In this document: positions 14,598 through 61,695 of the stretch, one piece after another | Position numbering within the stretch: the first letter of the stretch is position 1 | Layout of the letters: every line of letters begins with the position of its first letter | Source of the DNA: a virus | Lineage: Duplodnaviria; Caudoviricetes | Length of the DNA: 63,188 nucleotides | Reading direction: 5' to 3' (one strand) | IMG/VR virus record: IMGVR_UViG_3300013026_000023 | Location: 1 to 63,188 of that record | Notes under the pieces: generated by a model | Seen by the model: the letters and a program-made list of their open reading frames with translations, nothing else | Told to the model about the DNA's origin: nothing | The model's database searches: none | Made by a program: the position numbers and the translations under genes

Positions 14598-17500
14598 CTA
14601 CTCCGCGTAAAGTAGGTCTGCCCAAAACTCAGTGGGCTTTGAGTAGGCCAAGACGATAGCGTCTCCCAGGTTGGGGCTCCTGTGCAACCTAGCCTTGGTT
14701 TTCTTCTTGTCCTCTATGCGAGTCTTCTCGTTAGATGTCTCCTCATAGTAGGTGCCAGCTAAGTCCCTCATGGCCACTTCCTCGTAGTCCCCTAGTGGAG
14801 CAATGGCGACTTGGTCGTCTACCTGCATGGCCTGCCTTACCCTCCAATACTGCATTGCCTTGAGATTGAGGAACACCGGGTCATCAGGCTGTAGATCTTC
14901 TGCCCTTACCGCACTTCCCCAGGCAATACCATAAGCCTGGACGTCCTCCTCCATTAATATAGATAAGGTTCCGGCTCCGACCCCTACCCTATCTACGTTG
15001 ATAGTCCCTGGAGCTATCCTCAGCCTCTCCTTGGCGATCGCTGCAGCTCTAGAGACATCCAATCTATCCCCCCTGGTTGGATATTCCCTCGCAAAATAGA
15101 GCACTGGCCCTTTCCAGGAGGCTAGGGCGTGGGGGTCTCCTCCATCTCCTACGTCCAGCCCATGCCGCCAAGTCCCCTTATCGGCCAAGGTATCCCAATA
15201 CTCAGGGTCGCTATCATACCTCTCTCTAGCAGCCTTAAACCAACTGCGGGGAACAATACTCCCCTCGGCGTCGGTGGGAAACTCCCCTTCTACGCGCCCC
15301 TGCCAGAAGGTAGAACCTTCCCCTTTATCCCTGCGGACGTCCTCTATCCACTGAATAGAAACAGCCCCTGGAATGACATCCCTAGGGCACCAGTCTGGCC
15401 ATAGCTCCTGTGGTAGTATCTCCCCATCCCTGCCTCGGATCGCTGCATCTACTTCTGGCCTGAGGCGGTGATAGCCAGTGTGGTCATCCTTATAGTATGC
15501 CCAGCCAACATTGGGATGCCCCCAGACCGGGATAGCGATTGACCTACGCAAGCAGGCGATTTCAAATGGTGTGCCTCCTGCAGTGGGGTTGCCAATCCTA
15601 ACCAGCCTGTTTTGCGATCCAGTAGCGCAGGCCCTAGCTCCATCATCAATGGTTTCGGTAATACCGTTTGCCTCGTCCAGGATAAGCAGCATTTTAACTC
15701 CATGCTTGCCCTGAAATGAGTCAGTGCTGTAGTCACGAGCGGTAAAGCCATAGGCCCTAGCATGCTCATTCAGCTTCAGAAATAGTTCACCACGCTTGCC
15801 GCCTAGTTTGGTGTGATGAGCATCCCACAGCTTGCGAATCTCCGACCAGAGGATCTCTTTTACCTGCGCCTCTGTAGGGGCGGTGGTTATCGCCAGCCCT
15901 CCTATGGCAAAGACATGCCATAGGACTGCGCAGGAAACTACGTAAGAATTATGTTCCCAGAACGTAGTCAAGTAATGGTGATGCCCTGGAACCTCGATCG
16001 CGACCGTTTGATCCTCCCCAATATATTCAATTGATTTAACTGCTTCCCATCGCAAATTGGCTGGAATATCCCGCTCTCGCCACCTCTGCACCCGTCGATC
16101 TTGGCTCATTCGCTGCGCTTCACTCAGAACGGCTGAAACCTGCCGCTCCTTGCCATAGATGCCAATTTCTTCACAGAAGCGAATTGCGTCCGATGATGCT
16201 CCAATTCTGACGGTGTAGGAATTCGTCTTTGGTTTGGGGTTGATCCAAGCATTAATTCCAAAACGAAGCAACAGTTCCTGGACATCCAGGCAAAGCTGAT
16301 GGGATACAGAGGCGAAGCCAATCTCAACACCTCGCCCCTTGCATACTGTGGCCCATCCATCGGTTGAGTAAAGTCGAGAGAGGAATATGGCTACTTGTTT
16401 CTTTGACAGTCCGAATATTGCACCAGGGATAAACTTGTCACGCGAATGCTTAAACCGCATTCCATGTTCAGTAAGTAATCTGGCAACTGCGTTGGACCTA
16501 GGGACATAGGGGTAAGGTTGACGAGCTGCCACAAGTGGAGCGAGACGCAGCTCCAGTGCTTGCTGCAATTCCTCCTGACTGACAGGGGTCGGGCTGATCT
16601 GTGACTCCAATAGCTGCAAAGCCTGACGCATGTTCCCTCGTCCCTGCCCGATCACTGTTTGCTGAATGCAGGCATCAAGGGTTTCTAGATGAACGAGTTC
16701 ACTGGCACTGATATAAGAGCGGCCATAGAACTTAACGGGCTGAATCTCCAGTGCACTCAGTCTGCCATAAAACGCGGACAGCTTTACTGGCGATCGCTTT
16801 AGCGCCTGAGCAGTTGAAATAAAAGTTTTGCAGCTCAGGTCAACTGGAGCCTTGCTTTTTGGTGGCTTTTGAAACCCTGGAGACTTGGATTGACTCGACT
16901 TCACCAACCGCCAGCCATATTTTCCTGCTGGCTTAAAGTCACATCCAGCCAATGTTGCACAATCCTGAAACTCTTGTAGTTGTGCCCCATCCTGTTGAGT
17001 AAAAACAACATTGTTAGCGGTGTAGCCACCATCACCGATTAAATAAGCCAGCAGTTTCACCTCATGGTCAGGCAACTCATTTGTTCCAAATACGGGTAGG
17101 TTTGCCGTAACTGCCACCATCTGACCTGGTGAGATCTGCTGTGTCTGCACCCAACCTAAGCTCTCAATCTTAGGATGTGCCCCAGATCTGGATACCTTGT
17201 TTGCAACCCATAGAGGATGCTGTGCATTGCACTCGATCTGTCTGCCCGACTCAGTCGTAATTTGATAGATTGACTCAAGCTTATTCCAGGCTGCTTTGGC
17301 ACTAACGGCATGGATGGTTCCATCCATAATCGTCGGCAGTTGAAATTCCTTACCTACCAGAGAACCAGCAGGACAGCGCAAACCGCTTGATAGGGTGATC
17401 ATACGGTTAGCTCTAACGCACTTCCCCACTCCATGGGACGCGCGGACATTGGTGACGCTGTTATCCCGAATGGATTCTAGAATCGCCTCCTGCTCCTTGG

Positions 17501-17690
17501 TCAACAGAGGGACTTCCAGGACATCCCTAACAAACCCGATTGGATCGCTCTCGTAGTGGCTAAACGGCGGAGTCCAGGTCTCCGGCTCCTCGACTAGGCT
17601 CTGCGCTAGATGGAGAACCAAGGATTCGAACAAGCTCGTTGGAGACTGCTGTAAGAGCCTTGCGATCTGTGACGTGTCTTTTGATTGCAT
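14598..17690 (-). CDS. terL: Terminase large subunit containing an intein
   Basis: Walker A ASHGVGK|S, Walker B LILDEA, IGNP, nuclease GLDVG and SPNLGDA; exact start uncertain. Confidence 0.92.
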   Translation of the reverse strand: MQSKDTSQIARLLQQSPTSLFESLVLHLAQSLVEEPETWTPPFSHYESDPIGFVRDVLEVPLLTKEQEAILESIRDNSVTNVRASHGVGKCVRANRMITLSSGLRCPAGSLVGKEFQLPTIMDGTIHAVSAKAAWNKLESIYQITTESGRQIECNAQHPLWVANKVSRSGAHPKIESLGWVQTQQISPGQMVAVTANLPVFGTNELPDHEVKLLAYLIGDGGYTANNVVFTQQDGAQLQEFQDCATLAGCDFKPAGKYGWRLVKSSQSKSPGFQKPPKSKAPVDLSCKTFISTAQALKRSPVKLSAFYGRLSALEIQPVKFYGRSYISASELVHLETLDACIQQTVIGQGRGNMRQALQLLESQISPTPVSQEELQQALELRLAPLVAARQPYPYVPRSNAVARLLTEHGMRFKHSRDKFIPGAIFGLSKKQVAIFLSRLYSTDGWATVCKGRGVEIGFASVSHQLCLDVQELLLRFGINAWINPKPKTNSYTVRIGASSDAIRFCEEIGIYGKERQVSAVLSEAQRMSQDRRVQRWRERDIPANLRWEAVKSIEYIGEDQTVAIEVPGHHHYLTTFWEHNSYVVSCAVLWHVFAIGGLAITTAPTEAQVKEILWSEIRKLWDAHHTKLGGKRGELFLKLNEHARAYGFTARDYSTDSFQGKHGVKMLLILDEANGITETIDDGARACATGSQNRLVRIGNPTAGGTPFEIACLRRSIAIPVWGHPNVGWAYYKDDHTGYHRLRPEVDAAIRGRDGEILPQELWPDWCPRDVIPGAVSIQWIEDVRRDKGEGSTFWQGRVEGEFPTDAEGSIVPRSWFKAARERYDSDPEYWDTLADKGTWRHGLDVGDGGDPHALASWKGPVLYFAREYPTRGDRLDVSRAAAIAKERLRIAPGTINVDRVGVGAGTLSILMEEDVQAYGIAWGSAVRAEDLQPDDPVFLNLKAMQYWRVRQAMQVDDQVAIAPLGDYEEVAMRDLAGTYYEETSNEKTRIEDKKKTKARLHRSPNLGDAIVLAYSKPTEFWADLLYAE
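15948..17420 (-). mobile_element. 491-aa intein with LAGLIDADG homing endonuclease in the TerL Walker A motif
   Basis: Begins CVRAN after GVGK and ends WEHN before Ser; block B ECNAQHPL; LAYLIGDG and FLSRLYSTDG motifs. Confidence 0.92.
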
Positions 17691-18234
17691 CGAGTAGGGC
17701 TGTGACCAGGACAATAGCCTTCTCTTGGGATATGAACTGCTGCATCTCGACCAGCCTCTTGCGCTCTGATTCAACTAAGCGGCGGCGCTGATCCATCTGC
17801 CTGTTAATCTCATCCCAGACTGAGTAGTCCTGTTGGGCTTCCTTTATTGTCTCACCTAGCTCACCAATTAGCTGCTGGACAAGTACGCGGTCGCTTCCCG
17901 CCGCCCTGACATCCTTGATCAGCTTAGAGGCTTGAGTCCAGTGATCCTTAGCCTCACCTGTGTCCACTCGCTTCAATAGCTCAGCTAGCCTAGCATCCAC
18001 TAGGGATATCTCAGCACTGAGATTGAGCAGCTCTGGGTCGCTTTGGGACTCGTGATAGCGCTCCAATAGGCGAGTAGGCAGATACTTGGAGTAGCGGCCG
18101 TGCTTGAAGCTTGGGTTGGCCGAACCGACTGGTGTCTTACCCCCATGCAGCATACACCTATTCTTGCCAGGAAGTGGAGGCTTCTTGCAAGTTCCCCCAC
18201 TCCTAGTCTTAGCTCCGCACACTCTCTTTTTCAT
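17560..18234 (-). CDS. terS: Terminase small subunit (HGGxSTG-type Zn domain)
   Basis: CGAKTRSGGTC..P...KNRC.LHGG and FKHGRYS; directly upstream of terL. Confidence 0.8.
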   Translation of the reverse strand: MKKRVCGAKTRSGGTCKKPPLPGKNRCMLHGGKTPVGSANPSFKHGRYSKYLPTRLLERYHESQSDPELLNLSAEISLVDARLAELLKRVDTGEAKDHWTQASKLIKDVRAAGSDRVLVQQLIGELGETIKEAQQDYSVWDEINRQMDQRRRLVESERKRLVEMQQFISQEKAIVLVTALLDAIKRHVTDRKALTAVSNELVRILGSPSSAEPSRGAGDLDSAV

Positions 18235-21393: not shown

Positions 21394-21762
21394 ATGCTGA
21401 TTATCTATAGACCAGAGCGAGAGAATCCTGAGCGCAGGGGCAGCCGCGTCATTGATGGGCTGACGCTAGATCCAGGTACCAATACCGTTGATGATGACCT
21501 GGTTAAAGCCGTGGCTGATACCAATACCTACAAGCAATTGCTGGAGTGGGGAGCCGTATCTGTCCATCAGCCTACCGAAACCGTTGCCCCTGTAAGCTCT
21601 ACCGCCGAGCTGGGTGGCCTCAATATTGAGAGTGCCCAGGAAGTGATTGAAGCGACCAATGATGTGCCTACCCTTGAAGGCTGGTTAAAGGTTGAAACCC
21701 GCAAGACAGTGATCAATGCGATCAATCGCCGGATCACTGAGATCAAGGAGGGGAGGATCTAA
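21394..21762 (+). CDS. hypothetical head-associated protein
   Basis: post-MCP position; L.PG.N and C-terminal L..WL..E.RKTV..AI..R motif. Confidence 0.6.
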   Translation: MLIIYRPERENPERRGSRVIDGLTLDPGTNTVDDDLVKAVADTNTYKQLLEWGAVSVHQPTETVAPVSSTAELGGLNIESAQEVIEATNDVPTLEGWLKVETRKTVINAINRRITEIKEGRI

Positions 21763-22397
21763 TGTCCTTCCCTAAGTTGGAGAGGCTGTGTGAGTACTAT
21801 CGCAAGTACGAGCACCAAAAGAAAGCCCTCGACCAACTGGATGGACTAATCAAGCGGTTTGTCCCCGAAGACGATCTAGAGCGGGTGCTGAAGCTATGGC
21901 GAGGTAGCACCCCTGCGGTTGTCCATCCGCTGCAAAAGGGCATTGACCTGATTAAGGAGTTTGAGGGCTGTCACTTGGTTGCCTACCCAGACCCCCTATC
22001 CGGCAATCTGCCTATCACAATCGGGTGGGGCAGCACAAAGAACTTCAACGGCAAACCCTTTAAATTGGGCGATCGCATTACCCAGCAGGTAGCCGATGAC
22101 TTACTGAAGCACCAGGTTGAGTATGAGTTCTTGCCCACCCTAGCTAAGACAGTCCCTCACTGGGATGGCCTGAACAACAATCAAAAGAGCGCCCTATTGA
22201 GCTTCGCCTGGAACCTGGGAAAGCACTTCGCTACGGCGCTTTCGGGTTTCGAGAGCATGCAGCGAATGCTGCGAAACAAGGAGTATAAAGAAGCTAGGGA
22301 GGTATTTGTGAAATACCGCAATCCCGGTACCAAGGTAGAAGCTGGGCTGAAGCGTAGAAGGCTAGCAGAGGCGGAGTTATTTGGCACTCACGATTGA
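21762..22397 (+). CDS. GH24 lysozyme (endolysin)
   Basis: IKEFEGC.L.AYPDP...TIGWGST, ALLSFAWNLG, GLKRRRLAEAELF. Confidence 0.92.
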   Translation: MSFPKLERLCEYYRKYEHQKKALDQLDGLIKRFVPEDDLERVLKLWRGSTPAVVHPLQKGIDLIKEFEGCHLVAYPDPLSGNLPITIGWGSTKNFNGKPFKLGDRITQQVADDLLKHQVEYEFLPTLAKTVPHWDGLNNNQKSALLSFAWNLGKHFATALSGFESMQRMLRNKEYKEAREVFVKYRNPGTKVEAGLKRRRLAEAELFGTHD

Positions 22398-22731
22398 GCA
22401 ATTCCAATCTGAATACCCTGAGTTTGCCTCACTGACGCCGTCGAACATTCAGGGAAACCTTGCCTACGCTCATCGCCGCATCGACCCAGGTCATTACGGT
22501 GAGGAAACAGATCGAGCGATAGGGCTACTAACCGCTCACCTCATCCAGATAGGACAGCAAGGTGCCCTAATTATGGCTGGCGCCCTAGGAGAGGTAGGAG
22601 AGGGTAAGATGCCAGCCTTCCACAGGCAGGTGGACAATAGCTATACGTCCACAGGGTATGGGTTGTTGCTACTGGATCTACAAGAGAACCTGGGCGATAT
22701 CACAAGCCAAATTACATTCAGGGTATTTTGA
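22381..22731 (+). CDS. Head-tail adaptor (DUF4054-like)
   Basis: F...YPEFA...A..LLTAHL...STGYG motif. Confidence 0.75.
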   Translation: MALTIEQFQSEYPEFASLTPSNIQGNLAYAHRRIDPGHYGEETDRAIGLLTAHLIQIGQQGALIMAGALGEVGEGKMPAFHRQVDNSYTSTGYGLLLLDLQENLGDITSQITFRVF

Positions 22732-22822: not shown

Positions 22823-23116
22823 CTAGTCCGGGACGAATACAATCTCGTCTCCACCGTCGCTGTTACCACCAGTACGAGATTCGCTCACCACGTCAATGCC
22901 CAGTACTGCATCAATACGCCAGAAGGACTGCAGCATCTTGTGGGTAGTCTTGCCATCGTCCCCGTCTTCACTCTCCAGATAGGTGAAAAGCACCATCCCG
23001 TTCTCGACGCACCTGATGTGGACGTCATAATACCACTGATCCGCAAGCCGCAGGTCAATCTCAGCTTCAGAATCAACCAGGCTGCTTAGGTATTGTTCGA
23101 TACTAGGATTAGCCAT
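22823..23116 (-). CDS. hypothetical acidic small beta protein
   Basis: ATG 23116 overlaps the end of the upstream gene; 97 aa. Confidence 0.55.
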   Translation of the reverse strand: MANPSIEQYLSSLVDSEAEIDLRLADQWYYDVHIRCVENGMVLFTYLESEDGDDGKTTHKMLQSFWRIDAVLGIDVVSESRTGGNSDGGDEIVFVPD

Positions 23117-23573
23117 GAATGTCTCTCTCCTCTTCATCAAGAATGCGGTCTGTTCGTTCGCGATCGATGGCATTAAGAATTCTGGTTGTCTGGTTCTGTA
23201 TGGCCCTCCTAAGCGTGACATTTTCCTTAAAGGCTGCAATAGCCGATCTGAGGTATGGCGCCAAACTGAAAGCCGTATAGAGGCTAATCAGGGCACATGC
23301 GGCATCGATAGCACCCGCGAACCAGTACCAGGGATAGTAGAGTGTCAAGATATCGGCCAGGTGAGTCAAGCTGCAGGCGAAGACAAACGCGGCCGAAGAC
23401 ACGACAATCGATCTATGCTGCTTGGAATATAGCTGTAGGTCCGAGGCGAAGTTGAATAGCCCGAAGGGAATCCAGATATAGCTTGCGGCGATAACTAGGT
23501 TGGAGATTACCAGAAACCAGATGATGGCTGGATCATCTCTGAGACATACGTGACCGTGGGGGAGAAATTCCAA
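23109..23573 (-). CDS. Stand-alone ethylene-receptor-like (ETR1/Slr1212-type) 3-TM ligand-binding domain
   Basis: FLPHG; ISNLVIAASYIWIP (cf. ETR1 ISDFFIAIAYFSIP); AFVFACSLTHL (cf. AFIVLCGATHL, Cys65/His69); third TM ALISLYTA; TTG start with AGGAGG. Confidence 0.8.
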   Translation of the reverse strand: MEFLPHGHVCLRDDPAIIWFLVISNLVIAASYIWIPFGLFNFASDLQLYSKQHRSIVVSSAAFVFACSLTHLADILTLYYPWYWFAGAIDAACALISLYTAFSLAPYLRSAIAAFKENVTLRRAIQNQTTRILNAIDRERTDRILDEEERDIHG

Positions 23574-23583
23574 GTCCAGCCTC

Positions 23584-24120
23584 CTAGCGTTGCATGTCTC
23601 TCAGCTTCTGTAGCTCTCGTAGAACTCGCTCGTGTCCCCTGCGGCACTCTTCCAGCTCCTTCTCCACTATACTCAACCTCTTGGCCTGCCCCTCTAGTTC
23701 GCTGATGCGAAGTTGGAATCTGAAATTCTCCGATTGCAGAGCATCGACCTTGGACTCCAGACTCTGCTTCTCTTTTTCCTGGGCGTCGTAGCGCAGTGTT
23801 AGCCTATCTAGCTGCTGCTGGAGAAAATCGGCTTGTGATTTTACCCCCAATAGAATGCTAGCCTGCTGTTGCTCCAGGTATTGCCACTGCCCCTTTTGTC
23901 TGTCAGTGTCATCCTTGCGCCTACCTAGGAAGTAAGTGGCTATAGCTCCGACTGTTCCAGCTCCCCCGAGGGCAGGCAGCAGATCAACCCATCTATTGGA
24001 TGGCGCTTCATTTTGACTTTGATCTTGAGTGAGCGATGGCGCGGTAGGCCACACTAGGAGGAGGCAGAGGCAGGTAGAAGCCAGCCCTAAAGCTATGAAA
24101 CGCGAGGAAGGCATAGACAA
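23584..24120 (-). CDS. Membrane-anchored coiled-coil protein (holin/spanin-like)
   Basis: N-terminal hydrophobic segment, TM LLPALGGAGTVGAIATYFL, ~100-aa coiled coil. Confidence 0.55.
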   Translation of the reverse strand: MSMPSSRFIALGLASTCLCLLLVWPTAPSLTQDQSQNEAPSNRWVDLLPALGGAGTVGAIATYFLGRRKDDTDRQKGQWQYLEQQQASILLGVKSQADFLQQQLDRLTLRYDAQEKEKQSLESKVDALQSENFRFQLRISELEGQAKRLSIVEKELEECRRGHERVLRELQKLRDMQR

Positions 24121-24412
24121 AAATTCCGGTATAGGTGCGCTTCTCTAGCAGGGATAGAGCAACCAGTGAGAAGAGGGTCGCAGCTAGGATGCAGTGGGTC
24201 TTCCAGATGCGGTAATCAGCCTTGGCGAGCCCAAAGAAGCCAAGCAGCGACACAAGAATAAATAGGAATGCCCAATGTTCTATCCCTACCCTGAAGAATT
24301 GATAGATTGCACTGGTCACTCTTCCGTCTTTTGGTACTAGGAGTAGTCCGGCTCCAAAACAGGCGAGGAGGGACGGAATCTCGTGGATATAAGGTACTTT
24401 TAGCTTGGACAT
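24008..24412 (-). CDS. 4-TM membrane protein (holin-like)
   Basis: four hydrophobic stretches, basic C-terminus. Confidence 0.55.
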   Translation of the reverse strand: MSKLKVPYIHEIPSLLACFGAGLLLVPKDGRVTSAIYQFFRVGIEHWAFLFILVSLLGFFGLAKADYRIWKTHCILAATLFSLVALSLLEKRTYTGIFVYAFLAFHSFRAGFYLPLPPPSVAYRAIAHSRSKSK

Positions 24413-24467
24413 TGTATACTGAGCCTATTGGTATATTGTATCATTTTGTTATGGGTTGACAAAAGCA

Positions 24468-24496
24468 TTGACATTGCCAATGCGCGGTGCTATTGT
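24468..24496 (+). promoter_or_regulatory. sigma70-type promoter TTGACA-17-TATTGT with a second TTGACA just upstream
   Basis: ttgacaaaagcaTTGACAttgccaatgcgcggtgcTATTGT upstream of the small ORF at 24525. Confidence 0.6.
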
Positions 24497-24524
24497 TGGT
24501 TTACAGCAACGGGAGACAAGACCC

Positions 24525-24665
24525 ATGAAAAAGAGCGAACGACTGCAACAGCTTCTGAATCAACTCAAGGAAAACCAACAACGAGACTTGGAAAATACCG
24601 CCGCAATTTTTACGGTAGCGCAGGTTACCCTCAACGAGATCAACAAGCGCCTAGAGGCCTACTGA
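24525..24665 (+). CDS. 46-aa small protein
   Basis: own promoter and GGGAG RBS; MKKSERLQQLLNQLKENQQRDLENTAAIFTVAQV. Confidence 0.55.
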   Translation: MKKSERLQQLLNQLKENQQRDLENTAAIFTVAQVTLNEINKRLEAY

Positions 24666-27600
24666 CCTACGAGCCGAGGTAGAGTTCTGGAGCCTACCTA
24701 GGGCTCTATCGGCTCCTGCCTGCACCAATTGCGGTGCTAGCCTCTGGAATTGCTCCTCAGTGAGGTATCGTTGTCCAGCGATTTCAGTTGCCTTGTAGCT
24801 GACCTCTACCTTAGCTGGACCGTCGCTACGAGCTTGCGGCGCATTGGGCATCACTCTACTGGGTAAGGGGACAATATTGTTGCCTACCATGCCACCCTTG
24901 GCGTACTTAGGTAGGTTATTTAGCAAGCTGAGACCGCCTGTGCCAAGGTGCTTCATGGCGTTCTTGGTGAGGACCCCCTCTCCCGGCATGGCACGAATAA
25001 GTTCGCTGTCTCTGTTGCCTCTGCCAGGAATGACACCGCCCTTGGCGAAGCCCACCAGACCGAGTAGGGACTTACCGATATCCAGGAAGCCCCCTAGGCC
25101 TCCTCCTCCCCCGCCACTGGGATTCATTATGCCGCCAAATAGGTTCTCGAAGAGCAGGTTAACACCAAGATCAGCGATGCGAGTGAGCAGGTTATCAAAC
25201 AGATTGCCAAAGGCATCTCCAATACTCTCAGCGCCACTAATCACCGAGGAGAAGAAACCCTTCAGCTCCTCCCCTGCCATCTGGCGGATGTCCTTGCTGA
25301 CTCGCCGATTGACGTCCACCAGGTCCTGATACTGGGTATTCACTCCCTCCAGACTCACCTTGAGGCCATCCAAGTTAATGCGAGCCATCTCCTCTAGCAG
25401 CACCTTCTGATCCTTGAGGGTATTGTCAGTAGGGCTGTCGGCAATTCTAGAGTTGATGTCAGCAATCTGCTGCTTGATGTCCTGCTCCGCCCTAGCATAT
25501 TCAGCAAGGAAGTTGGTTGTCTGATCTGCTAGCCTGAGCAGTCCAGCCTGTTTGGCATCATTGGCGTTACCGGTGGCTTCCAGAGCCTCAATGCGCATCA
25601 AATTAACTGACTGGCGCTGCTGCAGGACTTGACCAGCCAAGTCCCTCAGCTCAGTCTGACGTGACCTAGCACGTTCCTCGTTGAGTAGCCTGACTGCGGC
25701 TGCCTCATCCTTGGTGGATTGAGTACGCCTCAACTGTAATTCCAGCATGCGCTGCTCGTTGTCCACGGTAGCCCCCTCAGCAGCCTGGAGGGCCTTCTCC
25801 CTCTCAATAAGCTGGTCAATTTCCTCTCGATAGCGAGAGTAGGATTCAGCGATCGCCCTGATTTCTTGCTGGTGTTGCTGTTCAGGTGTGTTGTTGCCAA
25901 ACTGTTCTTGCAGTCCTCTCAAGGCTTCGCTAGTCTCCTTGATTGATTCGGCTAGCTTAAAGTTCTCCTCAGCAAACACTCCTAACTCACGAGTGTTCAC
26001 AATAGAGGTCTTATCAGCAGCCTTCTTGGTCTCGGCCGCAATTTGGGCCTGAACTGCGTTAATCTCAGCGGTATAATCAACCCCACCAGTGATGCCGCTG
26101 GCAATCTTCTGGGTGCGTAACCTCACTAGGTCCTCAAGTGTATTCTTGAGCTCATCCATCTCCAGGGCACTTTCATGGGCGATTCGCTTGCGCTCTAGTT
26201 GAAGCTCAAGTGTCTCACGCCGCACATCCGAGACTCGAGTTGGATCCGCTTCTAGTTCGGCAATGGTCTTCTTAATTTGGTTCTCTTCCGCCTCAAAGGC
26301 CCTCTCCCTTTCCTTTACCCGCCTTTCCCTCGCTAGGGCTCTATTCTCCTCTGCATCCTCAGCAGCCTTGCCAGTGGCGATATTCTTGAGTTCCTGCTGC
26401 TCCAGGGCCCTGGATTCGGCAATAAGCTTCTGGGTAGCCTTAATGGCAGCGGCATAGTCTACTCCACCCTTCACCTTGTCCTGAATCTTACGACTCTGGG
26501 CTATCTGCAGGTCCTTGAGCTCCTGGTTGAGGTCTCGGCGCTCATTGATGCCAGAGAACTGCCTGGTTTTCTTCTCTAGATTGATCTGCCCTGAAGCCTT
26601 GAGGTTGGGGTCTGTAATGCTTGCGAGGTTACCCTTGAGTGTAGCCAAGTACTGCTTCTGGTCTGCCTCAATCTGAGCATCCTGATTCTTTCTGCTCTGG
26701 CGCAGAGCGGCATCATGTAGTCGTCTGGCCTCGTCAACTGCCCTCTGCCTCTCTCGCTCTGCTTTCTCCTTAGCAGCCTTGGCCGAGGCAGCACGCTGCT
26801 TAGCTAGCTTGGCACGCATTTGTGTATCTAGGGCTGAGTCCCCGCCTCCCCCAGCGGCTGCTCCTCCACCACCACCTATCTGACTCAGAATTGTGGACGC
26901 CTCATCCTCCCACTTGGCGTAAGCGTCAGGATAGGCGGAGCGCTGTACCTTCTGAGCCGCCTGAGCGACGCTGAGTGACCCACGATTTTTAACCTTGGCT
27001 AACTCCCTAAAGAAGCTTTCGGCGGCGGTCTTGGGGTCGGTGACGTTCTTCCAGCCCATGCTAGGACGCTGCTGGAATAAACCCTGGGAGTCCCTATCCC
27101 CATGGGCAAGGTTACGCAAGCCTGATTCCTGCAGGGCTGTAGCAAAAGCAATCTTGATATCGCGATCGCTCATACCCATACCACGCCCCACCTGGGCAAT
27201 GGTCTTGGCATGGCCCAATTGAGCGGCATTGAATCCGCCGCCTCCCCCTTTGGCGCCTCCAGGAAAGCGAGTAATCGTATAGGGGGATCCACCATCAGCG
27301 GCGGTAGCCCTAGGAGGGGCTCCACTCCCTCCCTTCATCCCCTGGGCTCCACCCATAATTGAGTGAAACTTGCGAGGATCCATCGACTTGCCGTTGATGT
27401 AAGTCTCATAGTGGAGGTGAGCGCCTGTACTACCCCAGCTACCCTTGCCTCCTCCAGGCATCCTATCGCCACCAACCGTGCCCACCCTTTGCCCTGTGAG
27501 GACCTGCTGGCCCTTGCCGACATTAATGGAATCCAGGTGCCCCAGGCGAATCTTTACCTTTTTGCCATCCACAACCCCTTCTATGCCAAGAAAGTACTCC

Positions 27601-29369
27601 CCTTTGTCCTTGGCCACCTCAATAACCTTGCCTGTAATGGAGGCCTGGACTGGAGTCCCCTCTGGGTAGCTGTAGTCATTACCAGCGTGTAGCCTTCCCC
27701 AGCGAGGTCCATAGGGAGAGCTGATCTTCTCGTTAACCGACTTGCCGGGAATGGCGAAGGTGACACCACCCGATTGTCCGCCCCCTCCTCCTTCTGCAGG
27801 ATTAAAGCCACCCTGGAGGGCTTTTGGAATACCCTGGAGGGGATTTAGGGCAATCTCCCTCATGGCGATACCAATTTGCGTGGCGATTTCATGTGCCCTG
27901 GTTAACCCCTGGGCGAACTTGGTTACCCAGCCGAAGATATCAGAGCTGAACTTGGCTACCTGTGCCATCCCCTTGGCCAAGTCTCCAACTATGTAGGCAG
28001 CGGTTCTAATCACCTCTGGATTTTGCTTGAGGTAGTCCAGGAACTCTCGCCCTAGCCTAGCTAGCTCTGTCAGGGCCTCGATTGCAATACCAGCAATCAC
28101 ATCAGCCAGCTCTTTCGCTAGCCCTGGGTTCTGCTCCAGATAGCTGGTAAACTCCAGAGAAACCTGATTAAGGGCACCAAAGAGCTCCTCGTTCTGCTCA
28201 ATCGATGACGCAAACTCAGAGCCAAAATTAATCGCGCCATCAATAGCTGGCTTCATCGCCGTGAAGGTGTTCTCCCAGATGCCAGTGATCTGGTCTTGCA
28301 GGTTAGAGAATTTTCCTCCCGTCTCGTTAGCCATTTTGTCGAGCAGACCGTGGTATCTCCCACCCTCAGCGGACATCGCCTGTAGGGCTGAACGAATGGC
28401 CTCAAAGCCAATCTCACCATCCTCGGTCATCTTGCGGAATTCTTCACTGGTAGCTCCCCAGCGCTTTTGCAGCTCCTCTGCGACGGGAATACCACGTCCA
28501 CTGAATTGGTTGATGTCCTCCTGGTAGGCCCTGCCTTGGACTCGCATCTTGCCGTAGATAGCAGCTAGCTCATTGAAGGGAGTGCCTGTAGCTGCAGCGG
28601 CATTACCCAACTCCTGCATGGTGGGGATAAGGTCCTTGGCTTGAACTCCCATAGCCAACAGGACTTTGCCGCCTTCTCTTACCTGTGGCAGGTTAAAGGG
28701 CGTCTTCTCAGCAAAATCGCTCATGTCCTGCAGCAGTTGCTTGGTGAGGCCAACATCCTTGGTCAAGGCCTCAACGGTTGCTCGAATCTGATCGCGCGCT
28801 GTACCAGCCTGAAACGCCTGAGTAACAATGCCACCAAGACCTGATGCAATGGTGCCAGCACCTGACTGAACTGCTTGGACAGCACCTAAGACCAAGGTTT
28901 GGCCAAATCCTTGTCCAACTCCTTGCAGGATGGACCTCTGGCCTCCAGCCGCCCTACTAAAGCTTGTACCCGCCTCTTGTCCGACTTTGGCAGCCTGAAC
29001 CTTGGTGGATTGCAACCCCTGGGCGTACCCCTTGGCAAACTGATCTCCTGCCTTTCTGCCAGCATAGCCAGTCTTCTCTAGGGCGAGTCCTAGGTCTCTA
29101 GCTCCTCTGGTGGCGCTAGCAATCCCCCTGGATAAATCCCTATCTAGGGCAACGCCAACATTCTTGCCGATTTTACTAACTCTGGTGAGTTCGGCACCTA
29201 GTTCTTTGACAGCCTGTTTTGTCCCGCTGCTAAGGGCTTCACTGAACTGCTGGCTAATCTGCTTAGCTGCATCAAGGGCATCACGCCTGAACTCTACTAG
29301 GCCACTCTTAAGCTTGCGCTTGTCAAGGCTGATACTAATTGAAATTGCAGCGATTTCAGAGGTTGCCAC
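24651..29369 (-). CDS. Tape measure protein with internal M23 peptidase and lysozyme-like domains
   Basis: Tape-measure core FAEKTPF..L.AMG...LGNAAA..GRGIP; M23 HAGND..GHL..GAHLHYE; ATALQESGLRNL..GDRDSQGLFQQRPS.GW..QRSAYPDAYAKWE; C-terminal FAKGG..PG.G..DS. Confidence 0.92.
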   Translation of the reverse strand: MATSEIAAISISISLDKRKLKSGLVEFRRDALDAAKQISQQFSEALSSGTKQAVKELGAELTRVSKIGKNVGVALDRDLSRGIASATRGARDLGLALEKTGYAGRKAGDQFAKGYAQGLQSTKVQAAKVGQEAGTSFSRAAGGQRSILQGVGQGFGQTLVLGAVQAVQSGAGTIASGLGGIVTQAFQAGTARDQIRATVEALTKDVGLTKQLLQDMSDFAEKTPFNLPQVREGGKVLLAMGVQAKDLIPTMQELGNAAAATGTPFNELAAIYGKMRVQGRAYQEDINQFSGRGIPVAEELQKRWGATSEEFRKMTEDGEIGFEAIRSALQAMSAEGGRYHGLLDKMANETGGKFSNLQDQITGIWENTFTAMKPAIDGAINFGSEFASSIEQNEELFGALNQVSLEFTSYLEQNPGLAKELADVIAGIAIEALTELARLGREFLDYLKQNPEVIRTAAYIVGDLAKGMAQVAKFSSDIFGWVTKFAQGLTRAHEIATQIGIAMREIALNPLQGIPKALQGGFNPAEGGGGGQSGGVTFAIPGKSVNEKISSPYGPRWGRLHAGNDYSYPEGTPVQASITGKVIEVAKDKGEYFLGIEGVVDGKKVKIRLGHLDSINVGKGQQVLTGQRVGTVGGDRMPGGGKGSWGSTGAHLHYETYINGKSMDPRKFHSIMGGAQGMKGGSGAPPRATAADGGSPYTITRFPGGAKGGGGGFNAAQLGHAKTIAQVGRGMGMSDRDIKIAFATALQESGLRNLAHGDRDSQGLFQQRPSMGWKNVTDPKTAAESFFRELAKVKNRGSLSVAQAAQKVQRSAYPDAYAKWEDEASTILSQIGGGGGAAAGGGGDSALDTQMRAKLAKQRAASAKAAKEKAERERQRAVDEARRLHDAALRQSRKNQDAQIEADQKQYLATLKGNLASITDPNLKASGQINLEKKTRQFSGINERRDLNQELKDLQIAQSRKIQDKVKGGVDYAAAIKATQKLIAESRALEQQELKNIATGKAAEDAEENRALARERRVKERERAFEAEENQIKKTIAELEADPTRVSDVRRETLELQLERKRIAHESALEMDELKNTLEDLVRLRTQKIASGITGGVDYTAEINAVQAQIAAETKKAADKTSIVNTRELGVFAEENFKLAESIKETSEALRGLQEQFGNNTPEQQHQQEIRAIAESYSRYREEIDQLIEREKALQAAEGATVDNEQRMLELQLRRTQSTKDEAAAVRLLNEERARSRQTELRDLAGQVLQQRQSVNLMRIEALEATGNANDAKQAGLLRLADQTTNFLAEYARAEQDIKQQIADINSRIADSPTDNTLKDQKVLLEEMARINLDGLKVSLEGVNTQYQDLVDVNRRVSKDIRQMAGEELKGFFSSVISGAESIGDAFGNLFDNLLTRIADLGVNLLFENLFGGIMNPSGGGGGGLGGFLDIGKSLLGLVGFAKGGVIPGRGNRDSELIRAMPGEGVLTKNAMKHLGTGGLSLLNNLPKYAKGGMVGNNIVPLPSRVMPNAPQARSDGPAKVEVSYKATEIAGQRYLTEEQFQRLAPQLVQAGADRALGRLQNSTSARRSVGL

Positions 29370-60250: not shown

Positions 60251-60988
60251 TCAGAATCCGTAACTCCAGCGGGCCTCGTAGCCCCTAGCGTCGATATGGG
60301 TAAAGGGGCTAGCGCTGGCTAAACCTCCTCTAGCCCCGTACCACTCATTCAGCAGAGAATAGACCTTGTAGGGATGAATAGTTGGGTGGCGAAAGTCTAC
60401 TGCGCTGCCTAGGATGTGCTGGCTATAGCGGGCTCCTCCCACTCGCTGGTTGGTGACCCTATCTCGATACCAGCTATTGATGGTTAGTGGACGTCCACCC
60501 AGGCGATCGCGTACCTCTTCCATGACGCGAGCAATCTTGATGATGCCATTAACCACACTCTTATCTTCAGGGATTCTAGAGCCATTGTGAGTCGCCTCAG
60601 CCCAGGTGAAATGCCCTTCAGGTATGATTGGGTCTCCCAAGTAAAAACGGCTCGTGTGGCCAGGCAGGAGGATGAATCTGCCCCTCTCTATTACCTCAGG
60701 GGGGACATCCTGCGGTTTGTTATCTCGTGTATTGCCAAATTCTTTTATGTGACCCTTATAGACGTAGAAGGTGTTGCGTCCATTGAATCTAGAGGCATCA
60801 TCCAGTCGTAGGGCTGCCTTTACATGGGTATCTCCGCTCAGGTCAATACTGTGTACCTTGAACTTTTCCCCCTCTTCGACGGGAAACTTCTCCCTGTCGC
60901 TCAGATCAGACGCCTGCTCAGGCGAGAGCTTAAACCAGGTGTCGTGAACAATATCTAGGAATTTCACAGAAAACCTCCGGGAAGCCAC
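60251..60988 (-). CDS. Peptidase M15A endolysin with cyanobacterial-type N-terminal domain
   Basis: INSWYR...N..VGGA..SQH..G.AVD, FTHIDARG; N-terminal DT.FKLSP.Q.SDL. Confidence 0.85.
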   Translation of the reverse strand: MASRRFSVKFLDIVHDTWFKLSPEQASDLSDREKFPVEEGEKFKVHSIDLSGDTHVKAALRLDDASRFNGRNTFYVYKGHIKEFGNTRDNKPQDVPPEVIERGRFILLPGHTSRFYLGDPIIPEGHFTWAEATHNGSRIPEDKSVVNGIIKIARVMEEVRDRLGGRPLTINSWYRDRVTNQRVGGARYSQHILGSAVDFRHPTIHPYKVYSLLNEWYGARGGLASASPFTHIDARGYEARWSYGF

Positions 60989-61258
60989 GCCGTTTTAACG
61001 GCAGTGGAGGGATAGAAGTAGTTGCCGTTCCTCCTGCATACACAAGTCAAACCTGCCACCAGTGTTTGCACATTGGTCTGAGGTCTGATAAGTCCTTCAA
61101 GTGTGGCAACTGTCATTGGTCTGGGGATGCTGATTTGAACGGAAGTTTGATGATTCAGTTATTGGGGCAGAATGTAAGGCTGCCTGTAGGTCCCTGGTTA
61201 TCTTGCGAGATAGCTGGAGGGCTAATGAAAGCTGCGGCATTTTAATGCCAGCAGAACC

Positions 61259-61486
61259 TTACAGCGGCATCCCCTCGTCGCGGCTGGATATCTCAGCGTT
61301 TTCGATATTCCGCACATTCGTTGTCGATCTAGCGGTTGGGGCTTGGGTGGCAAAACCAATTAGACCCCCGCCGACCAACAGGGCATAATCCTTAAAGGCA
61401 TCCTTGTCTCTGGCATAATCAAGGCTCCAAAGTAGGATACCGAAGAAGCTTAGCAGGACGGCGGTGGGCCAAGGAATGGACGACAC
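61259..61486 (-). CDS. small 2-TM membrane protein (holin-like)
   Basis: two hydrophobic segments; next to holin and endolysin. Confidence 0.5.
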   Translation of the reverse strand: MSSIPWPTAVLLSFFGILLWSLDYARDKDAFKDYALLVGGGLIGFATQAPTARSTTNVRNIENAEISSRDEGMPL

Positions 61487-61695
61487 TACTTGAACTTAAC
61501 CTCTTCTTCTTTTAGCGGAACGACGTAGCCGATCGCAAAAGTAATCAGGGTGGTTATAGCAGCAGCAGCTTCAGCGGGTAACTGGACATCGACAAAGGTG
61601 CTTAAACCCCAGACGACTAGAGAGGTGATAGCACCAGCGATGCCAGCGTATCCAACTTTAGAAATCGGTAGGGCAGACAGTAATTGTAGGGCCAT
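61486..61695 (-). CDS. Holin (2 TM)
   Basis: KV..AG.AGA...LVVW.L......LP.E.AAAITTL..FA.GY..P. Confidence 0.7.
   Translation of the reverse strand: MALQLLSALPISKVGYAGIAGAITSLVVWGLSTFVDVQLPAEAAAAITTLITFAIGYVVPLKEEEVKFK

What the first reader, a model, noticed from the sequence alone, without database searches (positions are those of the whole stretch)
22823..24412. Phage-encoded stand-alone ethylene-receptor ligand-binding domain in a membrane-protein operon facing the lysozyme
Seen: the 154-aa, 3-TM protein (23109-23573) aligns by eye with the ETR1/cyanobacterial ethylene-binding domain. Equivalents of Tyr32, Ile35, Pro36 and the Cu ligands Cys65/His69 are kept, while Asp25 is Asn and Lys91 is Asp. 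It has no GAF, kinase or other output domain, only a short coiled tail. It is co-transcribed with a 4-TM protein, a TM-coiled-coil protein and a small acidic protein, converging on the head/lysozyme operon. Established: these domains bind ethylene through Cu(I) and are normally fused to signalling domains in cyanobacteria. Inference: it is either a gas/Cu sensor gating holin-like partners (environment-timed lysis) or a dominant-negative decoy for host receptors controlling motility/biofilm. I know of no described phage example.
Basis: partly seen in the sequence, partly recalled or inferred. Interest (0 to 1): 0.85.

Follow-up and report, generated by a model that had tools for sequence, protein, structure and literature searches.

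The report
Phage-borne ethylene-binding domain without output
A probable cyanobacterial virus carries a small membrane protein that is a true relative of the copper-dependent ethylene-sensing domain of plant and bacterial receptors but has no signalling part attached, and at least two other phage lineages carry similar genes beside the same kind of neighbour, so phages may use this gas/copper sensor for a purpose still to be found.

Summary
ORF 23109-23573(-) encodes a 154-aa, three-helix membrane protein that matches Pfam ETR1_N (PF25487) end to end (E 4.9e-20, 72 bits, cut-off 27). It keeps the Cys/His copper ligands and Tyr32/Ile35/Pro36. Asn replaces Asp25 and Asp replaces Lys91. This pairing recurs in 8 of the 15 Asn-type relatives among 150, including full-length sensor kinases, so it is not decay.

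No kinase, GGDEF or receiver domain occurs anywhere in the 63-kb phage record. The nearest cellular relative is only about 42% identical, so this is not a recent host fragment.

- The phage has a canonical holin-endolysin cassette elsewhere (60251-61695).
- Output-less phage copies exist elsewhere but are undescribed: one IMG/VR contig, and the cultured Maribacter phages Molly/Colly. In Molly the gene sits directly upstream of the endolysin.

In all three lineages the gene adjoins a single-pass membrane plus coiled-coil gene.

My best reading is a ligand-site-intact sensor subunit of a two-gene phage membrane module with a non-enzymatic output, possibly tied to lysis. The function is inferred, not shown. 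I rate it a new variant of a known kind, interest about 0.6.

The parts
24435..24462 (-). Sigma-70-like promoter candidate (TTGTCA, 16 nt, TACAAT, with TG) upstream of the cluster. It lies back to back with a plus-strand candidate at 24468-24496.
   Evidence: 10 of 12 matches. The region held 3 such sites against 2.2 expected in shuffles, so this is a consensus match only. Sequence read.
24008..24412 (-). First gene of the cluster: a 134-aa membrane protein with 3-4 hydrophobic helices and no known family.
   Evidence: ORF. Hydropathy segments 8-26, 47-65 and 72-90. No Pfam, PHROG, NCBIfam or PADLOC family. Atlas look-alikes are unnamed phage membrane proteins of about 130 aa, TM 0.72 (a lead only).
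23584..24120 (-). Second gene: a membrane-anchored coiled-coil protein (176-178 aa if it starts at ATG 24114 or TTG 24120; a later start is possible). A glycine-rich TM helix near residues 45-64 is followed by RRKDD and about 105 residues of coiled coil.
   Evidence: ORF. Only weak coiled-coil hits in Pfam and PHROGs, the best being phrog_20881 at E 4e-4 and Rz-like spanin at E 0.11. A related strain in run X1 differs at 31 listed sites in this gene, 22 synonymous and 9 not, so it is a coding gene under constraint.
23109..23573 (-). Third gene: the stand-alone ethylene-binding-domain (ETR1_N) protein, 154 aa. It has three TM helices, and the third runs on as a helix of about 45 residues with a charged tail.
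   Evidence: PF25487 at E 4.9e-20. It keeps 20 of the 27 columns that are >=90% conserved in 149 relatives. AlphaFold2 mean pLDDT 92.7, helices 15-45, 51-79 and 83-153. AGGAGG lies 6 nt before the TTG start and overlaps the stop of the upstream gene.
22823..23116 (-). Fourth gene: an acidic 97-aa soluble protein (104 aa if it starts at ATG 23137). Its start overlaps the stop of the domain gene by 8 nt (ATGGCTAA), which suggests coupled translation.
   Evidence: Sequence. No family in Pfam, PHROGs, NCBIfam or PADLOC. The only relative is a 98%-identical protein, P0152. The Atlas lead to DUF6679 (score 0.90) was not confirmed by the PF20384 profile. The model is poor, pLDDT 49.
21762..22397 (+). 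Context: a 211-aa phage lysozyme inside the head operon. The cluster converges on this operon, with a 91-bp gap between 22731 and 22823.
   Evidence: PF00959 at E 1.8e-21. PHROG endolysin families. No hydrophobic segment.
60251..61695 (-). Context: the canonical lysis cassette elsewhere in the phage. It comprises a 69-aa two-TM holin (61486-61695), a 75-aa TM protein (61259-61486) and a 245-aa endolysin-like peptidase (60251-60988).
   Evidence: phrog_9284 holin at E 3.1e-10 and phrog_894 endolysin at E 3.5e-21. Hydropathy.

Best explanation
The 154-aa protein is a genuine member of the ethylene-binding-domain fold. A phage lineage captured it long ago and has kept it under selection without any enzymatic output domain.

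It most likely sits in the host cytoplasmic membrane with its N-terminus outside and its C-terminal helix inside. It probably still binds Cu(I) through its Cys/His pair, and so a small unsaturated or gaseous ligand. Because it belongs to the Asn25/Asp91 class, its affinity is probably lower than that of canonical receptors.

I propose that it is the sensing subunit of a two-gene phage membrane module. Its partner is the adjoining single-pass membrane plus coiled-coil protein, and the output is protein-protein or membrane-level rather than phosphotransfer or c-di-GMP.

The favoured role is modulation of a late membrane event, most plausibly the timing of lysis.

Shown: family membership, an intact ligand-site signature, absence of any output domain, recurrence in three phage lineages, and the conserved type of neighbour.

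Inferred: topology, metal and ligand binding, partnership with the neighbour, and the link to lysis.
For: Family and site:
- PF25487 at E 4.9e-20 over the whole profile.
- 20 of 27 near-invariant family columns are kept, including the helix-II Cys and His, Tyr32, Ile35, Pro36 and the N-terminal Cys.
- A confident three-helix model whose TM3 runs on as a long helix, pLDDT 92.7.

The isolated domain can work alone: the first 130 residues of SynEtr1 and AzoEtr1 bind ethylene when expressed on their own (passages of PMC6682694 and PMC11819568).

Asn25 and Asp91:
- Asn25 is a natural, still-signalling, low-affinity variant, commonest in cyanobacteria (PMC10266040 passages; PMC11971883 abstract).
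- Among 150 relatives, Asn pairs with Asp91 in 8 of 15 and with Lys in 1 of 15, whereas Asp pairs with Lys in 132 of 135.
- Five Asn/Asp relatives are complete PAS/histidine kinases.

Not a fragment:
- The best cellular relative is about 42% identical.
- No kinase, GGDEF or receiver remnant occurs in six frames.
- GC content is like the rest of the phage.
- A 96%-identical copy differs at 5 residues, none in a conserved column.
- A related strain shows 1 synonymous and 0 non-synonymous changes over 234 nt of the gene.

Recurrence:
- IMG/VR contig L002 has an ETR1_N protein of at most 269 aa with no other domain (E 9e-30).
- Maribacter phages Molly/Colly have a 289-aa ETR1_N protein (E 1.5e-16) of the Asn/Asp type.

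Neighbour: in 3 of 3 lineages the next gene on the same strand, overlapping or within 10 nt, encodes one glycine-rich TM helix followed by about 105-115 residues of coiled coil.

Lysis link:
- In Molly the pair sits directly upstream of the only recognised endolysin.
- That endolysin has no membrane segment, and no holin is annotated for Molly (PMC8776804 passages).

Rarity in cells: 0 stand-alone forms among the 80 best genome loci. Of these, 79 ORFs are >=407 aa and one short ORF runs off its locus.
Against: - No binding or expression data exist.
- The window phage already has a canonical holin-endolysin cassette 37 kb away. The nearby lysozyme is on the other strand, inside the head operon.
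- Neither the domain protein nor its neighbours match any holin, spanin or defence family.
- The three coiled-coil neighbours share no detectable sequence similarity. Their likeness is in architecture only, and gene order differs in L002.
- No endolysin family was found in the 54%-complete L002 contig.
- Seven near-invariant positions are changed in the window protein, among them the Trp after the PHGxC motif and Asp25. In ETR1 the D25N change nearly abolished in-vitro copper binding (PMC10266040 passage).
- The Asn25/non-Lys91 coupling is not significant once phylogeny is allowed for: 3 independent pairs, p 0.25.
- The survey of viral contigs was by a few peptide patterns, so its sensitivity is low.
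- The three phage proteins do not form one clade in a poorly resolved tree.
Confidence: 0.42

Rival explanations
1. Receptor decoy. The output-less domain inserts into the host membrane and forms mixed dimers with the host's own ethylene-binding-domain kinases or cyclases. This silences or locks their signalling (phototaxis, pili, surface polysaccharide, biofilm) to the phage's benefit, for example by changing the cell surface to block superinfection.
For: - Probable hosts are rich in such receptors. A single motif pattern found at least 600 stretches in species-representative genomes, 597 of them confirmed, and the best 80 are mostly cyanobacteria.
- The phage's closest cultured relatives are cyanophages.
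- The protein keeps the N-terminal Cys that PMC6682694 (passage) suggests may serve dimer formation in cyanobacterial receptors.
- It also keeps a long post-TM3 helix suited to coiled-coil pairing.
- SynEtr1 controls phototaxis and biofilm (PMC6682694 abstract).
- That truncated plant receptors act dominantly is my recollection and was not checked here.
Against: - No cellular relative exceeds about 43% identity among 1.84 billion representatives. The domain sits on a long branch. This is unexpected for a protein that must pair with a host receptor, although the true host is unknown.
- The otherwise near-invariant Trp after PHGxC is lost and a residue is inserted before the Cys.
- A conserved phage-encoded neighbour in three lineages points to an output of the phage's own.
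- Keeping the full ligand-site signature is not needed for a pure decoy.
Confidence: 0.2
2. Plain holin or antiholin. The three-helix scaffold was recruited only as a membrane-lesion or holin-regulating protein. Ligand and copper binding are irrelevant relics.
For: - The size, three TM helices and highly charged C-terminal tail resemble class I holins (architecture; the comparison with class I holins is recalled).
- In Molly it occupies the gene position directly before the endolysin, and no holin is annotated there.
- In the window it lies about 0.7 kb from a lysozyme that has no membrane segment.
Against: - The Cys/His pair, Tyr32 and Ile35 are kept in all three phage proteins although these share only 25-33% identity. 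This argues for selection on the ligand site.
- No holin family match.
- The window already has a family-assigned holin next to an endolysin-like peptidase.
- The BFVD fold search gave only chance-level holin hits, E 0.5 and above.
Confidence: 0.15
3. Copper handling. The protein acts as a membrane Cu(I) sink or carrier that alters host copper supply during infection, without sensing anything.
For: The Cys/His copper ligands are intact. One copper per monomer is reported for ETR1 (PMC10266040 passage).
Against: - Asn at position 25 strongly lowers in-vitro copper binding in ETR1.
- One low-capacity site per small protein is a poor sink.
- There are no copper-transport or chaperone genes nearby.
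- It does not explain the coiled-coil neighbour.
Confidence: 0.06
4. Decaying fragment of a host sensor gene picked up by accident and on its way to loss.
For: It is the N-terminal part of what is normally a longer protein. 10 of the 10 long relatives I scanned carry PAS, kinase, GGDEF or receiver domains.
Against: - The ORF is clean, with a strong ribosome-binding site and coupled neighbours.
- No remnant of any output domain occurs in six frames.
- At most about 43% identity to any cellular copy.
- Composition matches the phage.
- It is conserved in a second strain, with substitutions only at variable positions.
- Output-less copies occur independently in two other phage lineages.
Confidence: 0.03

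Closest known systems
SynEtr1 / UirS (slr1212) of Synechocystis sp. PCC 6803 and other cyanobacterial ethylene-binding-domain receptors (GeiEtr1/2)
   Same: The same N-terminal three-helix domain family (PF25487), with one N-terminal Cys, Tyr32/Ile35/Pro36 and the helix-II Cys/His. The isolated 130-residue domain of SynEtr1 binds ethylene on its own (PMC6682694 passages).
   Different: The cellular proteins carry GAF/PAS/cyanobacteriochrome and histidine-kinase domains, while the phage protein ends after a helix of about 45 residues. The phage protein has Asn25/Asp91, a one-residue insertion in PHGxC and no Trp after it. It is encoded by a virus, next to a coiled-coil membrane protein.
Arabidopsis ETR1 carrying Asp25Asn (natural-variant mimic)
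   Same: Asn at the helix-I position. In ETR1 this variant still signals but binds ethylene about 100-fold more weakly (PMC11971883 abstract). Asp25 and Lys91 co-evolve (PMC10266040 passages).
   Different: In the phage protein the helix-III partner is Asp, not Lys. This combination was not tested in those papers as far as the passages I read show. The phage protein has no GAF, kinase or receiver domain.
AzoEtr1 of Azospirillum brasilense
   Same: A bacterial ethylene-binding domain shown to bind ethylene as a 130-residue fragment (PMC11819568 passages).
   Different: AzoEtr1 is a 525-aa PAS-histidine kinase with all seven binding residues. The phage protein has no output domain and differs at two of them. 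The list of the seven residues is recalled, not seen in the passages.
Maribacter phage Molly_1 gp65 (QQO97550.1, annotated 'hypothetical protein') and the ETR1_N protein of IMG/VR contig IMGVR_UViG_3300003267_000167
   Same: Both are phage-encoded ETR1_N proteins without a known signalling domain, each adjoining a TM plus coiled-coil gene. Molly gp65 shares Asn25/Asp91 and an extra residue before the N-terminal Cys.
   Different: They are only 25% and 33% identical to the window protein. Molly gp65 has an extra C-terminal part of about 160 residues with no known family, has lost Pro36 and the PH of PHGxC, and lies directly before the endolysin. The IMG/VR copy is the canonical Asp/Lys type and precedes its coiled-coil neighbour.
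Class I holins such as lambda S105 (comparison of architecture only; recalled)
   Same: A small protein with three TM helices and a charged cytoplasmic C-terminus, in a phage and near a muralytic enzyme.
   Different: No sequence or profile relation. The phage has another, family-assigned holin. A conserved metal-ligand signature is not a holin feature.

Membership tests
Ethylene-binding domain (Pfam PF25487, ETR1_N) | Profile match above the curated threshold over the whole domain | tested here: met
   E 4.9e-20, 72 bits against a cut-off of 27, profile positions 2-96 of 97. Six-frame search E 1.2e-21, with 0 of 14 control genomes ringing.
Ethylene-binding domain (Pfam PF25487, ETR1_N) | Three transmembrane helices | tested here: met
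   Hydropathy segments 17-35, 55-73 and 86-104. AlphaFold2 helices 15-45, 51-79 and 83-153 at pLDDT 92.7. Orientation in the membrane is inferred, not tested.
Ethylene-binding domain (Pfam PF25487, ETR1_N) | Helix-II Cys and His copper ligands (ETR1 Cys65/His69), four residues apart | tested here: met
   Window C67 and H71 fall in columns that are C in 149 and H in 150 of 150 relatives. Both are also kept in L002 and Molly.
Ethylene-binding domain (Pfam PF25487, ETR1_N) | Helix-I Asp (ETR1 Asp25) | tested here: not met
   Asn; the column is D in 135 and N in 15 of 150. Asn is a published natural variant, 3.67% of 1,221 sequences, functional in ETR1 with lowered affinity (PMC10266040 passages).
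Ethylene-binding domain (Pfam PF25487, ETR1_N) | Helix-III Lys (ETR1 Lys91) that pairs with Asp25 for signal transmission | tested here: not met
   Asp; the column is K in 133, D in 8 and R in 4 of 150. Asn25 goes with Asp91 in 8 of 15 and with Lys in 1 of 15. With phylogeny allowed for there are only 3 independent pairs, p 0.25.
Ethylene-binding domain (Pfam PF25487, ETR1_N) | Tyr32, Ile35, Pro36 and Ile62 (residues reported as needed for binding; the list is recalled from Wang et al. 2006 and was not seen here) | tested here: inconclusive
   Tyr32, Ile35 and Pro36 are kept. The Ile62-equivalent (window position 64) is Val, in a column that is I in 144 and V in 4 of 150.
Ethylene-binding domain (Pfam PF25487, ETR1_N) | Saturable ethylene binding that depends on Cu(I) | not testable with these tools
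   Needs radioligand and copper titration assays, as described in PMC6682694, PMC11819568 and PMC10266040.
Ethylene receptor (sensor kinase or cyclase with an ethylene-binding domain) | Covalent fusion to a cytoplasmic signalling domain (GAF/PAS plus histidine kinase, GGDEF or receiver) | tested here: not met
   No second domain in the 154-aa protein. No HATPase_c, GGDEF or Response_reg anywhere in the 63-kb record in six frames at E<=1. 10 of the 10 long relatives scanned do carry such domains.
Holin | Membership of a described holin family | tested here: not met
   No holin family in Pfam or PHROGs for the domain protein or the 134-aa membrane protein. A different gene, 61486-61695, matches phrog_9284 holin at E 3.1e-10.
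Holin | Gene next to the endolysin gene, in one lysis cassette | tested here: inconclusive
   In the window the lysozyme is about 0.7 kb away on the opposite strand, with one gene between. In Molly the gene lies directly upstream of the endolysin. In L002 no endolysin was found.
i-spanin (Rz-like), considered for the coiled-coil neighbour | N-terminal TM helix plus periplasmic coiled coil, with a lipoprotein o-spanin partner | tested here: inconclusive
   The architecture fits, but phrog_739 Rz-like reaches only E 0.11. The basic residues after the TM helix suggest a cytoplasmic coiled coil (inference). I saw no lipoprotein partner in the cluster and did not search for one systematically.

The most novel reading that the evidence does not exclude
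Phages of at least two bacterial phyla have turned the copper-dependent ethylene-binding domain into the ligand-gated half of a two-protein membrane switch, the other half being a coiled-coil membrane protein. The switch would time lysis, or another late membrane event, according to an environmental gas, copper or redox cue. This would be the first small-molecule-gated lysis regulator and the first non-cellular use of this receptor fold.
Probability: 0.15. Interest if true: 0.9.

Novelty: new variant of a known kind. Interest (0 to 1): 0.62.

Why it matters
The ethylene-binding domain is known only as the input module of cellular receptors in plants, cyanobacteria and some other microbes. Its structure and its signalling logic are still open questions.

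A virus-encoded version has four useful properties:
- It shows that the domain can be selected for on its own, without a fused output.
- It offers a minimal 154-residue natural construct for structural and binding work.
- It gives a natural example of the Asn25/Asp91 pairing, which bears on the Asp25-Lys91 transmission model.
- It raises the possibility that phages read a gaseous, copper or redox cue.

Because a related gene sits before the endolysin of the cultured Maribacter phages Molly and Colly, the idea can be tested at the bench straight away.

Tried and rejected
Complex prediction of the domain protein with residues 36-176 of the coiled-coil neighbour returned 'no answer' (score 0.00, controls not run). 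This is no evidence either way.

No RNA holder was listed for the cluster, so nothing can be said about expression.

The acidic protein:
- Its structure model was too poor to search with (pLDDT 49).
- The Atlas lead to DUF6679 was not borne out by the PF20384 profile.
- It shows no BLASTP likeness to the C-terminal part of Molly gp65.

The coiled-coil neighbours of the three phages show no BLASTP likeness to each other.

Foldseek of the domain model:
- Against the PDB: nothing at E<=1e-3.
- phmmer against PDB sequences: only chance hits. No solved structure of this domain is on hand.
- Against BFVD: one real hit, A0A8E4UZR7 (289 aa, E 2.6e-5). By its length and accession series I take it to be the Molly/Colly protein, but I did not verify this.

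Close relatives of the window protein were sought in viral, metagenome and genome contigs, and none was found.
- The contig of the 96%-identical P0001 could not be fetched, so no dN/dS for the whole gene was possible.
- Relatives of P0002 in metagenome contigs (L003-L012) were all fused PAS/kinase-type or cut off.

17 of the 150 best representatives are at most 260 aa.
- Some are plainly fragments: P0126 ends in a kinase H-box-like motif, and P0092 and P0125 run on into PAS-like sequence.

The tree of 153 domain sequences was poorly resolved (10 of 150 branches well supported). I draw no donor or order of events from it.

No defence family fits any cluster protein.

The habitat hint is weak. 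A 90-99% similar variant occurs in two runs of one rock-metagenome study, covering 24 and 12 of 30 bins. This may be the window's own source.

SI file 7 of PMC8776804 (gene annotations of Molly) and the SI of PMC10266040 (taxa of the Asn variants) might bear on the claims that the Molly gene is undescribed and that Asn is cyanobacterial.


Full report
WHAT IS THERE

The window is a linear IMG/VR virus record of 63,188 bases, estimated 85% complete.

On the minus strand between 24412 and 22823 lie four tightly packed genes:
- a 134-aa protein with three or four hydrophobic helices (24412-24008);
- a 176-178-aa protein with a glycine-rich membrane helix followed by about 105 residues of coiled coil (24120 or 24114 to 23584);
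- the 154-aa protein of the finding (23573-23109);
- an acidic 97-aa protein (23116-22823) whose ATG overlaps the stop of the previous gene by 8 nt.

The 154-aa gene starts at TTG, six bases after AGGAGG, and that AGGAGG overlaps the stop codon of the coiled-coil gene.

A promoter-like site lies upstream of the first gene (TTGTCA, 16 nt, TACAAT). A small plus-strand ORF separates the cluster from the tape-measure gene (24651-29369).

The cluster converges on the head operon, leaving a gap of 91 bases. That operon ends with a PF00959 lysozyme (21762-22397) and a DUF4054 head protein (22381-22731).

IS IT AN ETHYLENE-BINDING DOMAIN?

Yes.
- The protein matches Pfam PF25487 (ETR1_N) at E 4.9e-20 and 72 bits against a cut-off of 27, over profile positions 2-96 of 97.
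- The same model finds nothing in 14 control genomes.
- A word-free HMMER scan of 1.84 billion representative proteins gave 4517 relatives at E<=1e-3 and 725 at E<=1e-10.
- All 10 long relatives that I scanned carry ETR1_N at the N-terminus, followed by PAS, histidine-kinase, GGDEF or receiver domains.

I aligned the first 200 residues of the best 150 relatives. Of the 27 columns that are at least 90% conserved in 149 relatives, the window protein keeps 20. The kept positions include:
- the N-terminal P-H-G-x-C motif with its cysteine;
- Tyr32, Ile35 and Pro36;
- Phe63;
- the helix-II Cys67 and His71, which correspond to the copper ligands Cys65 and His69 of ETR1;
- Thr70, Pro81, Tyr83, Ser97 and Thr100.

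The seven changed positions are:
- Trp13 to Asp;
- the helix-I Asp to Asn;
- Phe60 to Ser;
- the Ile62-equivalent to Val;
- Gly68 to Ser;
- Trp79 to Tyr;
- Thr93 to Cys.

There is also a one-residue insertion before the N-terminal Cys and a two-residue insertion in the first loop.

AlphaFold2, run with an 85-row alignment, gives a confident model (mean pLDDT 92.7, pTM 0.72) with helices 15-45, 51-79 and 83-153. The third membrane helix therefore runs straight on into a cytoplasmic helix of about 45 residues.

The ETR1 numbers rest on how PMC10266040 describes the conserved helix-I Asp, helix-II Cys/His and helix-III Lys, and on my recollection. The ETR1 sequence itself was not available to align.

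THE TWO 'DEVIANT' RESIDUES

Passages of PMC10266040 state the following:
- Asp25 is found in 93.55% of 1,221 domains, and Asn in 3.67%, 'most commonly in cyanobacteria'.
- ETR1-D25N shows only residual copper binding in vitro, yet still rescues ethylene responses.
- Asp25 and Lys91 are strongly co-evolving and are proposed to pass the signal to helix III.

The abstract of PMC11971883 gives a 100-fold lower affinity for D25N.

In my 150 relatives, the Asp column pairs with Lys in 132 of 135 sequences. The 15 Asn sequences pair with Asp in 8 and with Lys in only 1; the rest have Arg, Leu, Asn, Met or Thr. Five of the Asn/Asp proteins are complete PAS/histidine kinases.

So Asn25/Asp91 is a recurring natural state of working sensors, not a sign of decay. 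The association is not significant when phylogeny is allowed for, because only three independent contrasts exist. All three go the same way, p 0.25.

IS IT A DECAYING HOST FRAGMENT?

No.
- Apart from a 96%-identical metagenomic copy (P0001), the best relative is 42% identical.
- P0001 differs at five residues, none of them in a conserved column.
- A related strain in a rock-metagenome run shows one synonymous and no non-synonymous change over the 234 nt of the gene that its contig covers.
- The same contig carries 22 synonymous and 9 non-synonymous listed changes in the coiled-coil gene. That gene is therefore real and under constraint.
- The cluster's GC content matches the rest of the phage.
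- No HATPase_c, GGDEF or receiver domain is detectable anywhere in the record in six frames at E<=1.

WHAT KIND OF PHAGE?

Portal, major capsid and helicase proteins find their best cultured relatives in cyanophages:
- Synechococcus phage S-CBS4 (portal 33.8%, E 2e-61; capsid 28.6%);
- Aphanizomenon phage CL131;
- Pseudanabaena phages Pam3 and Pam2.

A cyanobacterial host is likely but not shown. S-CBS4 has nothing like the cluster between its head genes and its tape-measure gene.

LYSIS GENES

The window has a canonical cassette far from the cluster:
- a 69-aa two-helix holin (61486-61695; phrog_9284, E 3.1e-10);
- a 75-aa membrane protein;
- an endolysin-like peptidase (60251-60988; phrog_894, E 3.5e-21).

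The lysozyme in the head operon has no membrane segment of its own, however, and its helper is unknown.

OTHER PHAGES

The window protein itself finds nothing by tblastn in 50,697 GenBank phage records, and nothing close in IMG/VR.

Using relatives as queries, I found two more lineages.

1. IMG/VR contig IMGVR_UViG_3300003267_000167 (L002).
   - It encodes an ETR1_N protein of at most 269 aa (E 9e-30) of the canonical Asp/Lys type, with no other domain.
   - The gene lies downstream of a RusA gene.
   - It is followed at once by a gene for one glycine-rich membrane helix plus a long coiled coil.
2. The cultured Maribacter phages Molly_1-5 and Colly_1.
   - They encode a 289-aa 'hypothetical protein' (Molly1_65) that matches ETR1_N at E 1.5e-16.
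   - It keeps the Cys/His pair, Tyr32 and Ile35.
   - Like the window protein, it has Asn25, Asp91 and an extra residue before the N-terminal Cys.
   - Its upstream neighbour Molly1_64 overlaps it by 4 nt and is again one membrane helix plus about 105 residues of coiled coil.
   - Its downstream neighbour is the amidase endolysin (PF01520; phrog_435, E 2.7e-27), which has no membrane segment.
   - The main text of the paper describing these phages (PMC8776804, passages) lists only the amidase as a lysis gene for Molly. It notes membrane proteins near the lysins and never uses the word 'ethylene'.

The only significant BFVD fold match of my model is a 289-aa viral protein (E 2.6e-5), probably this one.

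The three phage domains are 25-33% identical to each other. They do not form one clade in a poorly resolved tree, although a single origin is not excluded.

Further pattern scans of IMG/VR found no more copies, but these scans are insensitive.

HOW UNUSUAL IS AN OUTPUT-LESS FORM?

One motif pattern hit at least 600 stretches in species-representative genomes, and 597 of them were confirmed. Of the best 80 loci, mostly cyanobacteria and Acidobacteriota, 79 have ORFs of 407 aa or more. The single short ORF runs off its locus, so none is stand-alone.

17 of the 150 best representatives are at most 260 aa. Several of these are plainly fragments, and I could not inspect the context of the others.

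WHAT IT MOST LIKELY DOES

Established:
- The isolated domain is sufficient for ethylene binding in SynEtr1 and AzoEtr1.
- The Asn25 state is functional, with low affinity, in ETR1.

Shown here:
- The phage protein keeps the ligand-site signature.
- It lacks any enzymatic output.
- It recurs in three phage lineages, next to the same architectural type of neighbour.
- In one lineage it sits in front of the endolysin.

Inferred:
- It still binds Cu(I) and a small ligand.
- It works together with the coiled-coil membrane protein.
- It acts on a late membrane event such as lysis timing.

I give this composite reading about 0.42. The rivals are:
- a decoy for host receptors (0.20), weakened by the low identity to any cellular receptor and by the conserved phage-encoded partner;
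- a plain holin or antiholin with a relic site (0.15), weakened by the conservation of the site across 25-33% identity and by the presence of another holin;
- a copper sink (0.06);
- a decaying fragment (0.03).

No defence family fits.

NOVELTY

The domain family is well known. A virus-encoded, output-less form with a conserved coiled-coil membrane neighbour is not described in any paper returned by my searches. Those searches were made, judged on listings and abstracts, plus passages of PMC7700396, which mentions only possible histidine-kinase exchange between brown algae and giant viruses.

I therefore rate it a new variant of a known kind. It is made more interesting by the existence of a cultured phage-host pair in which it can be tested.

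Noticed in passing
window 469-2724 (+): The 751-aa portal protein (PF06381, residues 56-415) carries a C-terminal ADP-ribosyltransferase domain (PF03496 at E 5.7e-13 and PF01129 at E 1.8e-10, residues about 592-749). This may be a virion-delivered host-modifying enzyme.
   Followed up: no
window 14598-17774 (-): A 1058-aa ORF is interrupted by an intein with a LAGLIDADG homing-endonuclease domain (PF14528 at E 1.1e-16; Intein_splicing at E 1.1e-5). I did not identify the host protein.
   Followed up: no
window 60251-61695 (-): A canonical lysis cassette: a two-TM holin (phrog_9284), a 75-aa TM protein and an endolysin-like peptidase (phrog_894). Together with the PF00959 lysozyme at 21762-22397, the phage has two candidate endolysins.
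   Followed up: partly
window 24651-29369 (-): The 1572-aa tape-measure protein contains, by eye, an M23-peptidase-like motif and glycine-rich linkers (translation). I did not test this with a profile.
   Followed up: no
window 23340-23955, run X1 contig: Within one 616-nt contig of a related strain, divergence jumps at the gene boundary. It goes from 1 difference in 234 nt of the ethylene-binding-domain gene to 31 or more in 372 nt of the coiled-coil gene. This could be a recombination joint or very unequal constraint.
   Followed up: partly
window 2856-4397 (+), 5189-7384 (-), 36074-37510 (-): A 513-aa protein with a C-terminal DnaJ domain; a 731-aa protein with a GDSL lipase/acylhydrolase domain, possibly a tail enzyme; and a 478-aa ORF that matches only the first 98 of 523 positions of the ribonucleotide-reductase barrel, so it may be split or interrupted.
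   Followed up: no
L013 4947-5816 (Maribacter phage Molly_1, Molly1_65): The ETR1_N domain of this cultured phage is followed by about 160 residues with no Pfam or PHROG family. This may be the output part of the phage version of the domain.
   Followed up: partly
window 24456-24665 (+): A small plus-strand ORF of 46-69 aa, depending on the start, has its own promoter-like site (TTGACA, 17 nt, TATTGT at 24468-24496). It overlaps the end of the tape-measure gene by 15 nt and diverges from the cluster.
   Followed up: no
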